DNA of 64,000 bases from the NCBI RefSeq assembly GCF_057098645.1, contig NZ_CM169472.1; one strand, 5' to 3'. A program made the translations under genes and the position numbers. The notes below the pieces were generated by a model. The model was not told where the DNA came from. It made no database searches and saw only the letters and a program-made list of their open reading frames with translations. Below are positions 62,630 to 62,950 of the stretch, piece after piece (positions within the stretch are counted from its first letter, which is position 1; each line of letters opens with the position of its first letter).

Positions 62630-62950
62630 ATACGCATCAGGTATACACCGCAGCGCCTGATGCGACGCTGTTGTGTCTTATCAGGCCTACGAGTTCAGTG
62701 CTGTGTGTAGGTCGGATAAGGCGCTCACGCCGCATCCGACAATAACAGCATTGCCTGATGCGACGCTGCCGCGTCTTATCAGGCCTACGAGTTCGGTGCT
62801 GTGTAGGTCGGATAAGGCGTTCATGCCGCATCCGACAATAACAGCATTGCCTGATGCGACGCTTGCGCGTCTTATCAGGCCTACGAGTTCAGTGCTGTGT
62901 AGGTCGGATAAGGCGTTCACGCCGCATCCGGCAATAACAGCCTTGCCTGA
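62630..62950. repeat. BIME/REP tandem array (about 3 units, period about 98 bp)
   Basis: Three near-identical units each with gcctgatgcgacgc...gcgtcttatcaggcctac and taggtcggataaggcg...gccgcatccg. Confidence 0.75.

What the first reader, a model, noticed from the sequence alone, without database searches (positions are those of the whole stretch)
62630..62950. Tandem BIME/REP array of three roughly 98-bp units between holC and pepA
This is the longest repeat array in the window, with three nearly identical units each containing two opposed REP palindromes. The six-frame track even shows a repeating pseudo-protein across it. BIMEs bind gyrase and IHF and can stabilise upstream mRNA; copy number here may differ between strains. 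It is not a CRISPR array: the units are contiguous palindromic REPs with no unique spacers and no cas genes nearby.
Basis: seen in the sequence. Interest (0 to 1): 0.2.

Follow-up and report, generated by a model that had tools for sequence, protein, structure and literature searches.

The report
Three-unit BIME-2 REP array, pepA–holC spacer
This is an ordinary, already catalogued E. coli "BIME-2" repeat: three tandem 96-bp units of two opposed REP hairpins sitting between pepA and holC, with a unit number that differs between strains.

Summary
Window 62655-62950 holds a tandem repeat (period 96, 3.1 copies, TRF score 504; the next best in the window scores 89). It consists of six complete REP palindromes (Y, Z2, Y, Z2, Y, Z2) in alternating orientation, with 12-nt head-to-head and 14-16-nt tail-to-tail linkers and half-REP remnants at both edges. 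It fills the spacer between the pepA stop and the holC start, both on the minus strand.

The one-unit K-12 version of this locus is listed in the literature as a BIME-2 carrying mapped gyrase cleavage sites.

Across 5426 complete E. coli genomes, about 4006 carry the REP allele. In a sample of 98 chromosomes, 47 had three units, 19 two and 7 one; a 4-unit allele made by an exact unit duplication also exists. About 1401 genomes carry an unrelated hairpin filler instead. E. albertii and E. whittamii share the array.

Likely roles, inferred and not tested here: gyrase target, protection of the pepA mRNA 3' end, and partial attenuation of read-through into holC-valS. Already known; low interest.

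The parts
62159..62602 (-). holC (DNA polymerase III chi), the downstream gene. Its stop overlaps the valS start by 1 nt at 62159.
   Evidence: ORF list; RefSeq annotation of identical E. coli records.
62603..62630 (-). holC leader/RBS (sense strand: ATTTAAATCCACCACAAGAAGCCCCATAT-ATG). It is shared by the REP and non-REP alleles and by the Salmonella, Citrobacter and Kluyvera spacers.
   Evidence: Allele comparison and outgroup spacers.
62631..62641 (.). Half-REP remnant (ACGCATCAGGT), complementary to the head of Y1 (9-nt perfect inverted repeat 62633-62641 / 62656-62664).
   Evidence: Inverted repeat I14; sequence.
62655..62690 (-). Y REP number 1 (GTAG-first orientation on the minus strand), loop variant TGTTGTGT.
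62691..62706 (.). Tail-to-tail linker, 16 nt (GAGTTCAGTGCTGTGT); the 2 extra nt make the first period 98.
62707..62740 (+). Z2 REP number 1 (GTAG-first on the plus strand).
62741..62752 (.). Head-to-head short (S) linker, 12 nt, AATAACAGCATT.
62753..62788 (-). Y REP number 2, loop variant TGCCGCGT.
62789..62802 (.). Tail-to-tail linker, 14 nt.
62803..62836 (+). Z2 REP number 2.
62837..62848 (.). S linker, 12 nt, AATAACAGCATT.
62849..62884 (-). Y REP number 3, loop variant TTGCGCGT.
62885..62898 (.). Tail-to-tail linker, 14 nt.
62899..62932 (+). Z2 REP number 3. On the mRNA it is the first hairpin after pepA; its foot lies 23 nt past the stop codon.
62933..62955 (.). S-like linker plus half-Y remnant (GCCTGACGCAA, 62945-62955), ending 1 nt before the pepA stop codon.
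62956..64000 (-). 3' part of pepA (aminopeptidase A), the upstream gene; stop codon TAA at 62958-62956. The gene runs off the end of the window.

Best explanation
The feature is a type-2 bacterial interspersed mosaic element (BIME-2). It consists of three tandem 96-98-bp units, each made of one Y-type and one inverted Z2-type repetitive extragenic palindrome joined by short linkers. It lies in the 353-nt spacer downstream of pepA and upstream of holC-valS.

Shown here: its anatomy, its membership of the dispersed REP family, and the fact that its unit number changes in register between strains and species (1 to 4 units). E. coli E105 carries an exact one-unit duplication of the window's array.

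Inferred from published work on this locus in K-12 and on other BIME-2 elements:
(a) On DNA, the Y REPs are preferred, transcription-independent DNA gyrase binding and cleavage sites, so the array is a local gyrase target and possibly a supercoil barrier.
(b) On the pepA transcript, the six hairpins block 3'-to-5' exonucleases and so protect pepA mRNA. They also partly attenuate read-through into holC-valS, probably with some dependence on Rho.
(c) Units are gained and lost by unequal exchange or slippage between the 96-bp direct repeats, possibly helped by the REP-associated transposase RayT.
For: Periodicity and anatomy.

REP features: every REP has the 5' GTAG, a 7-bp lower stem, a 2-nt internal mismatch and an upper stem. 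These are the determinants Ton-Hoang et al. 2012 found necessary for TnpA_REP binding.

Six other REP/BIME loci lie in the window, with 28 motif hits against 0.36 in shuffles.

BIME-2 criteria: Y plus Z2, a short S linker, tandem copies and strain-variable number (definitions). No IHF site was found.

Rfam: RF02564, a model built on one Z2-linker-Y unit of REP325, matches two units full length at 82 and 78 bits against a gathering score of 59.5.

Gyrase: the K-12 holC-pepA element is listed as a BIME-2 with 2 (ciprofloxacin), 1 (rifampicin plus ciprofloxacin), 0 (microcin B17) and 2 (oxolinic acid) gyrase cleavage sites (PMC6379681, Table DS3). That paper reports cleavage mostly in Y REPs and a signal that rises when transcription is blocked.

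RNA role: the minus-strand RNA folds at -167.9 kcal/mol, z = -8.7. REP325, a six-unit BIME-2 between tandem genes, stabilises the upstream mRNA and acts as a partly Rho-dependent attenuator. REP-separated tandem gene pairs show upstream-biased expression genome-wide (bioRxiv 10.64898/2026.03.23.713779).

Unit dynamics: alleles a-b-c (window, BL21), a-a-c, a-b-a, b-a, a-c, a (K-12) and a-b-b-c (E105) differ by whole in-register units. Within-array unit identity of 0.91-0.98 is equal to or above the between-lineage 0.83-0.93. rayT is present in 3569 of 5426 E. coli genomes, including O157:H7.
Against: No transcript, half-life, termination or gyrase data exist for the three-unit allele. The functional statements are transferred from K-12's one-unit allele and from other loci.

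About 26% of E. coli genomes have no REP at this site and K-12 has one unit. Unit number is therefore not essential and may be close to neutral.

Published REP effects depend on context. Portions of REP325 with 2-4 hairpins were not sufficient for Rho-dependent termination, and terminal REPs were not generally associated with longer mRNA half-lives.

No sigma-70-like promoter or intrinsic terminator was predicted in the spacer, so how holC is transcribed relative to the array is unresolved. No 3'-end or holC TSS entry was found in the supplements available to me.

The Z2 (versus Z1) label rests on context, on the literature listing and on the Rfam model. It was not checked against a published consensus, which I could not retrieve as text.
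Confidence: 0.9

Rival explanations
1. The array is selfish or neutral repeat DNA at this locus. It is a RayT-dependent or recombination-driven expansion that is tolerated in a permissive spacer and has no locus-specific function.
For: Unit number ranges from 0 to 4 among otherwise near-identical loci, and 1401 of 5426 genomes lack REPs here. Alleles are shuffled as expected from unconstrained unequal exchange. REP effects are reported as variable and context-dependent.
Against: Some strongly structured palindromic element occupies this spacer in 97% of 66 Enterobacteriaceae species examined (median z about -6), whichever repeat family supplies it. The BIME-2 itself is retained across Escherichia species. 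Gyrase does cleave the K-12 copy in vivo.
Confidence: 0.3
2. The units encode naRNA4-like nucleoid-associated small RNAs that work with HU to condense the chromosome.
For: Rfam RF02564 (naRNA4) matches 62806-62881 and 62710-62785 on the + strand above its gathering score. Qian et al. 2015 reported HU-bound REP325 RNAs and nucleoid decondensation on REP325 deletion (PMC4550694).
Against: The same model hits every head-to-head Z-Y BIME in the window (27735, 33976, 37668), so it detects generic BIME units and not a specific gene. The above-threshold hits are on the + strand, antisense to pepA and holC, where no promoter was predicted. On the transcribed strand the scores of 52-56 bits fall below threshold. 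A 2026 preprint from a group including the original senior author finds no measurable effect of REP325 or naRNA4 on nucleoid volume or on REP-REP contacts.
Confidence: 0.04
3. The array is a CRISPR array or some other spacer-acquiring repeat locus.
For: Only the superficial resemblance: regularly spaced palindromic repeats.
Against: There are no unique spacers. The 12-nt and 14-16-nt linkers are themselves repeated. The neighbouring genes are valS, holC, pepA and, in K-12, lptF. The repeats belong to the dispersed REP family.
Confidence: 0
4. The array is a repeat-containing protein-coding gene; the periodic ORFs across it are real.
For: ORFs of 99 aa (+), 77 aa (-) and 64 aa (-) span the array.
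Against: ORFs are open on both strands simply because 96 nt equals 32 codons of stop-poor, GC-rich sequence. No Pfam family reaches its cut-off; the best are 15.9 bits against 34.8 and 15.8 bits against 25. RefSeq annotates nothing there in matching records. Alleles differ by whole units, or the sequence is replaced outright.
Confidence: 0.01

Closest known systems
BIME-2 at holC-pepA in E. coli K-12 (listed in Sutormin et al. 2019, Table DS3)
   Same: Same locus, same flanks, same Y and Z2 REPs. K-12 carries the window's first Y joined to its last Z2.
   Different: K-12 has one unit (159-nt spacer) and the window has three (353-nt spacer). Gyrase cleavage was mapped only on the one-unit version.
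REP325 (yjdM-yjdN BIME-2, source of naRNA1-6 and Rfam RF02564)
   Same: Tandem Z2/Y units between two co-oriented genes. The Rfam model built on one of its units matches the window's units full length. It is the best studied functional analogue, acting as an upstream mRNA stabiliser and a partial Rho-dependent attenuator.
   Different: REP325 has six units (12 hairpins) against three here (6 hairpins), and it lies at a different locus with different linkers. Partial Rho dependence was seen only with the full 12-hairpin array.
BIME-1 / RIP elements (IHF-binding REP pairs)
   Same: Both are built from REPs in inverse orientation, including a Y REP.
   Different: BIME-1 uses Z1, a long L linker with an IHF site, and occurs as single copies. 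Here the linkers are short, there is no IHF consensus, and the units are tandem. A BIME-1-like element with an IHF-like site lies elsewhere in the window at about 47613-47685.
REPIN/RAYT systems of Pseudomonas and other gamma-proteobacteria
   Same: Paired inverted REPs associated with a domesticated Y1 transposase. rayT is present in 66% of E. coli genomes.
   Different: These systems have species-specific REP sequences. Whether RayT acts on this array was not tested.

Membership tests
REP (repetitive extragenic palindrome / palindromic unit) of E. coli | Imperfect palindrome of 30-40 nt with a conserved GTAG 5' of the stem foot | tested here: met
   All six copies are 34-36 nt with GTAG followed by a 7-bp lower stem and a 3-5-bp upper stem. 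Definition from PMC3333891.
REP (repetitive extragenic palindrome / palindromic unit) of E. coli | Internal mismatch (bulge) in the stem, required for TnpA_REP binding | tested here: met
   A 2-nt by 2-nt unpaired internal loop is present in all six predicted hairpins.
REP (repetitive extragenic palindrome / palindromic unit) of E. coli | Extragenic location and high-copy dispersal in the genome | tested here: met
   The array lies between the pepA stop and the holC start. Its sequence matches a median of 36 places per genome, capped by the tool. Six other REP loci lie in the window, with 28 motif hits against 0.36 in shuffles.
REP (repetitive extragenic palindrome / palindromic unit) of E. 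coli | Cognate REP-associated tyrosine transposase (rayT) in the same genome | tested here: inconclusive
   rayT is found in 3569 of 5426 complete E. coli genomes, including O157:H7. The genome the window comes from could not be checked, because rayT lies outside the window.
BIME-2 | Alternating Y and Z2 REPs in inverse orientation | tested here: met
   The order is Y-Z-Y-Z-Y-Z with alternating strands. The Z2 label is supported by full-length matches to the Rfam model of the Z2/Y unit of REP325 and by the literature listing of this locus as a BIME-2. It was not compared with the printed consensus.
BIME-2 | Short (S) head-to-head linker without an IHF site | tested here: met
   The linker is 12 nt, AATAACAGCATT. 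No WATCAANNNNTTR match was found with up to one mismatch, while a control BIME at 47598-47700 gives ATTCAATAAATTG.
BIME-2 | Tandem copies at a locus, with a number that varies between strains | tested here: met
   The window has 3 units. Alleles with 1, 2, 3 and 4 units occur in E. coli and in other Escherichia species.
BIME-2 | Preferential binding and cleavage by DNA gyrase | not testable with these tools
   The evidence is published data for the one-unit K-12 allele only: 2/1/0/2 cleavage sites under four conditions.
BIME-1 / RIP | Long L linker carrying an IHF binding site; single copy | tested here: not met
   the linkers are short, there is no IHF consensus, and the units are tandem.
naRNA4 (Rfam RF02564) | Covariance-model score above the gathering threshold | tested here: met
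   82.2 and 77.9 bits on the + strand against a threshold of 59.5. The minus strand scores 52-56 bits, below threshold. The model also hits three other BIMEs in the window, so it is not locus-specific.
naRNA4 (Rfam RF02564) | Expressed as a discrete HU-bound RNA | not testable with these tools
   No promoter was predicted on the + strand. No expression data were available.
CRISPR array | Identical repeats separated by unique spacers, usually with cas genes nearby | tested here: not met
   All linkers are repeated, and the neighbours are valS, holC and pepA.
Intrinsic (Rho-independent) terminator | GC-rich hairpin followed directly by a T-run | tested here: not met
   No terminator-like sites were found in 62100-63400 on either strand.

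The most novel reading that the evidence does not exclude
The pepA-holC spacer may be under selection for a strong palindromic structure as such. Across Enterobacteriaceae it is filled alternately by two unrelated repeat families: REP/BIME-2, and a CCCTCTCCC...GGGAGAGGG hairpin family. Within Escherichia, the number of BIME-2 units (0 to 4) could act as a heritable, strain-specific dial. It would set pepA mRNA stability, read-through into the essential holC-valS genes, or the strength of a local gyrase/supercoiling barrier.
Probability: 0.2. Interest if true: 0.35.

Novelty: already known. Interest (0 to 1): 0.1.

Why it matters
It matters little on its own. REP/BIME-2 arrays and their copy-number polymorphism have been described for decades, and this locus is already listed as a BIME-2 and a gyrase cleavage site in K-12. 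The locus could serve as a convenient natural allelic series for testing the recent claim that REP arrays tune upstream and downstream gene expression. It offers 0, 1, 2, 3 and 4 units, plus a non-REP replacement, in otherwise near-identical flanks next to essential genes. The same series could test whether gyrase loading scales with the number of Y REPs.

Tried and rejected
- A fixed-spacing IUPAC pattern for whole REPs found nothing, not even the known copies. The pattern was badly designed because loop lengths vary. I replaced it with head and tail core motifs in Python.
- The promoter and terminator scan of 62100-63400 found one promoter-like site, inside holC (62286-62257, minus strand), none in the spacer, and no intrinsic terminator. 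The transcriptional link between pepA and holC therefore stays unresolved.
- Searches for mapped 3' ends or transcription start sites in the spacer failed. Dar and Sorek 2018 has no supplement held as text. The Adams et al. 2021 supplements list only a pepA TSS and nothing for holC. No supplement is held for Ton-Hoang et al. 2012.
- A literature search for holC, pepA and REP together gave no relevant paper. The paper on REPs close to stop codons and translation (Liang, Rudd and Deutscher 2015, recalled from memory) was not found in the library. Here the first full REP starts 23 nt after the pepA stop.
- Pfam scans of the periodic ORFs gave only sub-threshold noise, so the coding reading was rejected.
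- The naRNA4 reading was considered after the Rfam hit and rejected as a specific assignment, because the model hits every Z-Y BIME in the window.
- The RefSeq record of MG1655 shows no repeat_region feature for this REP, so no official REP number could be attached.
- An exact tally of unit numbers across all 5426 genomes was not possible, because the tools list at most 60 rows. I used two systematic 'spread' samples totalling 98 chromosomes, plus the exact coverage counts.

Full report
**Observation.** The window is E. coli. A 1.6-kb stretch around the finding is 100% identical to E. coli O145 strain RM9872, and matching records annotate valS, holC and pepA there. All three genes are on the minus strand: valS 59304-62159, holC 62159-62602, and pepA with its stop at 62956-62958. 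The finding therefore lies in the 353-nt spacer downstream of pepA and upstream of holC. Tandem Repeats Finder reports 62655-62950 with period 96, 3.1 copies, 93% matches and score 504. The next best array in the window scores 89. The gap-free repeat finder gives start-to-start spacings of 98, 96 and 96. The periodicity, the coordinates and the claim that this is the longest array in the window are all confirmed.

**Anatomy.** There are six complete palindromes. Three are Y-type: GCCTGATGCGACGC-loop-GCGTCTTATCAGGCCTAC on the + strand, at 62655-62690, 62753-62788 and 62849-62884. They alternate with three inverted Z2-type copies: GTAGGTCGGATAAGGCG-loop-CGCCGCATCCGAC, at 62707-62740, 62803-62836 and 62899-62932. 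The head-to-head linkers are 12 nt (AATAACAGCATT) and the tail-to-tail linkers are 16, 14 and 14 nt. Half-REP remnants sit at both edges, at 62631-62641 and 62945-62955, and the second ends one base before the pepA stop codon.

Written in the GTAG-first orientation, each copy has the GTAG tetranucleotide, a 7-bp lower stem, a 2-nt internal mismatch and a 3-5-bp upper stem. Ton-Hoang et al. (PMC3333891) showed that GTAG and the stem mismatch are required for TnpA_REP binding and cleavage. The minus-strand RNA, which is the pepA 3' UTR, folds at -167.9 kcal/mol with z = -8.7.

**Family membership.** REP head and tail motifs occur at six other loci in the window, with 28 hits against 0.36 in shuffles. 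Ton-Hoang et al. define BIME-2 as Y plus Z2 REPs with a short S linker, occurring as tandem copies whose number varies between strains. They define BIME-1 as Y plus Z1 with a long L linker that frequently carries an IHF site, occurring as single copies.

This array meets the BIME-2 criteria. It has no IHF core consensus even with one mismatch, whereas a BIME-1-like element elsewhere in the window (47598-47700) gives ATTCAATAAATTG.

Rfam's naRNA4 model (RF02564) is built on one Z2-linker-Y unit of REP325. It matches two units full length at 82 and 78 bits against a gathering score of 59.5. It also matches three other BIMEs in the window. I read it as a generic detector of BIME units and not as evidence for a specific sRNA gene.

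**This locus in the literature.** Sutormin et al. 2019 (PMC6379681, Table DS3) list an 83-bp BIME-2 annotated '<holC-<pepA' in their K-12 derivative. It carries 2, 1, 0 and 2 gyrase cleavage sites under ciprofloxacin, rifampicin plus ciprofloxacin, microcin B17 and oxolinic acid respectively. The paper reports that cleavage sites are over-represented in BIME-2, fall mostly in Y REPs, and increase when transcription is blocked. K-12's spacer is 159 nt and contains exactly the window's first Y joined to its last Z2. The element is therefore already known, and the window carries a longer allele of it.

**Variation between strains.**
- Of 5426 complete E. coli genomes, 5409 hold the locus.
- About 4006-4007 genomes have a REP allele.
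- 1401 genomes have a 132-nt spacer with no REP at all.
- In two systematic samples totalling 98 chromosomes, 47 had three units, 19 had two, 7 had one and 25 had the non-REP allele. None had more than three.
- Four-unit alleles do exist. E. coli E105 has the window's array with its middle unit duplicated exactly (a-b-b-c), giving a 449-nt spacer.
- A record titled E. coli SCPM-O-B-8794 has four diverged units in a 455-nt spacer.

Labelling units by their Y-loop variant gives a-b-c (window, BL21), a-a-c (S65EC), a-b-a (H1), b-a (GF4-3), a-c (99-3165) and a (K-12). All alleles differ by whole in-register units. This pattern is what unequal exchange, slippage or gene conversion between 96-bp direct repeats would produce. 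Within-array unit identity (0.91-0.98) is equal to or above between-lineage identity (0.83-0.93), which fits modest local homogenisation. rayT is present in 3569 of 5426 genomes, including O157:H7. These data cannot separate a RayT contribution from ordinary recombination.

**Beyond E. coli.** A degenerate HolC N-terminus pattern retrieved 73 Enterobacteriaceae loci, and the spacer could be extracted from 67 of them. E. albertii has three Y/Z2 units at the same site, E. whittamii has two, and Escherichia sp. MOD1-EC7003 has one. The BIME-2 therefore appears to predate the divergence of these Escherichia species.

Salmonella, Citrobacter and Kluyvera carry one to three REP-like palindromes of their own at this site. 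Ten other species, in Buttiauxella, Cedecea, Superficieibacter and others, carry a CCCTCTCCC...GGGAGAGGG hairpin like the E. coli non-REP allele. In 97% of 66 spacers the RNA is more structured than shuffles, with a median z of about -6. That control is rough: mononucleotide shuffles, 12 per sequence.

**How it most likely works.** Shown here are the structure, the family membership and the unit dynamics. The rest is inferred.
- *On DNA:* the Y REPs are gyrase targets. This has been demonstrated for the K-12 allele. BIME-2 elements have also been proposed as supercoil barriers (PMC10592627).
- *On RNA:* the closest studied analogue is REP325, a six-unit BIME-2 between co-oriented genes. In a 2026 preprint it stabilises the upstream mRNA and acts as a partly Rho-dependent attenuator of the downstream gene, while showing no measurable effect on nucleoid compaction. 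REP-separated tandem gene pairs show upstream-biased expression genome-wide. By analogy, this array should protect the pepA mRNA 3' end and reduce read-through into holC-valS.

Several points count against a strong or essential role. A quarter of strains lack the REPs and K-12 has one unit. REP effects depend on context, and 2-4 hairpins were not enough for Rho dependence in REP325. No promoter or intrinsic terminator was predicted in the spacer. I found no transcript-end data for the spacer.

**Rejected readings.**
- *CRISPR:* there are no unique spacers.
- *Coding repeat protein:* the ORFs lie on both strands and arise because 96 nt equals 32 codons, and no Pfam family reaches threshold.
- *Intrinsic terminator:* none was predicted.
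- *Specific naRNA gene:* the model is generic, the above-threshold hits are on the untranscribed-looking strand, and the function is disputed.

**Verdict.** This is a textbook BIME-2, already catalogued at this locus. Novelty: already known. Interest: low.

Noticed in passing
L003:630-736 (E. coli O111:H8 strain 8E; same site as window 62631-62955): About 26% of complete E. coli genomes (1401 of 5426) have no REP in the pepA-holC spacer. They carry an unrelated 132-nt spacer instead, with a nested hairpin (CCCTCACCCTAACCCTCTCCCTAAGGGAGAGGG...TTAGGGTGAGG). Its 55-nt core occurs at a median of 6 intergenic places per genome in 5325 genomes, so it belongs to a second, small dispersed hairpin family that I could not name.
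   Followed up: partly
L016, L018, L028, L036, L039, L047, L051, L053, L054, L080 (pepA-holC spacers of other genera): A CCCTCTCCC-loop-GGGAGAGGG hairpin occupies the same pepA-holC spacer in ten other Enterobacteriaceae species (Buttiauxella, Cedecea, Superficieibacter, Enterobacter spp. and others). Two unrelated palindrome families therefore alternate at this site across the family.
   Followed up: partly
L045 (Superficieibacter sp. 1612_C1), pepA-holC spacer, 246 nt: This spacer holds a tandem array of three to four directly repeated REP-like palindromes (ATGCCGGGTGGCGCTGCGCTTACCCGGCCTGGGATTTGGTGC..., period about 48). It is an independent tandem expansion of a different REP type at the same site.
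   Followed up: no
window 62603-62630: The roughly 29 nt just upstream of the holC ATG (sense strand ATTTAAATCCACCACAAGAAGCCCCATAT) is kept in the REP and non-REP E. coli alleles and in the Salmonella, Citrobacter and Kluyvera spacers, while everything upstream of it is replaced. No sigma-70-like promoter was predicted there, so how holC is transcribed is unclear.
   Followed up: partly
window 62159-62602 versus L015, L063, L076: The holC coding sequence is 97.7-98.2% identical at the nucleotide level between the window and E. albertii, E. whittamii and Escherichia sp. MOD1-EC7003. From memory, this is higher than the genome-wide divergence between these species. It might reflect strong constraint or recombination.
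   Followed up: no
window 63715-63909 (+): There is a full-length Rfam match to Ysr276 (Yersinia antisense sRNA 276) at 180 bits against a gathering score of 100. It lies antisense inside the pepA coding sequence.
   Followed up: no
window 27732-27816, 33973-34056, 37615-37718, 47613-47685, 18266-18278, 28828-28840: These are other REP/BIME loci in the window. The first three are head-to-head Z-Y pairs that also match Rfam naRNA4. The element at 47613-47685 is tail-to-tail with an IHF-like site (ATTCAATAAATTG) in its linker, so it looks like a BIME-1.
   Followed up: partly
window 105-189, 13371-13493, 18065-18122, 18202-18243, 44648-44763: Other Rfam matches above gathering score are the RpsF leader, ES239 sRNA, STnc450, ES036 (CssrF) and a magnesium riboswitch aptamer.
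   Followed up: no
window 62157-62161: The holC stop codon and the valS start codon overlap by one base (position 62159). This suggests translational coupling of holC and valS.
   Followed up: no
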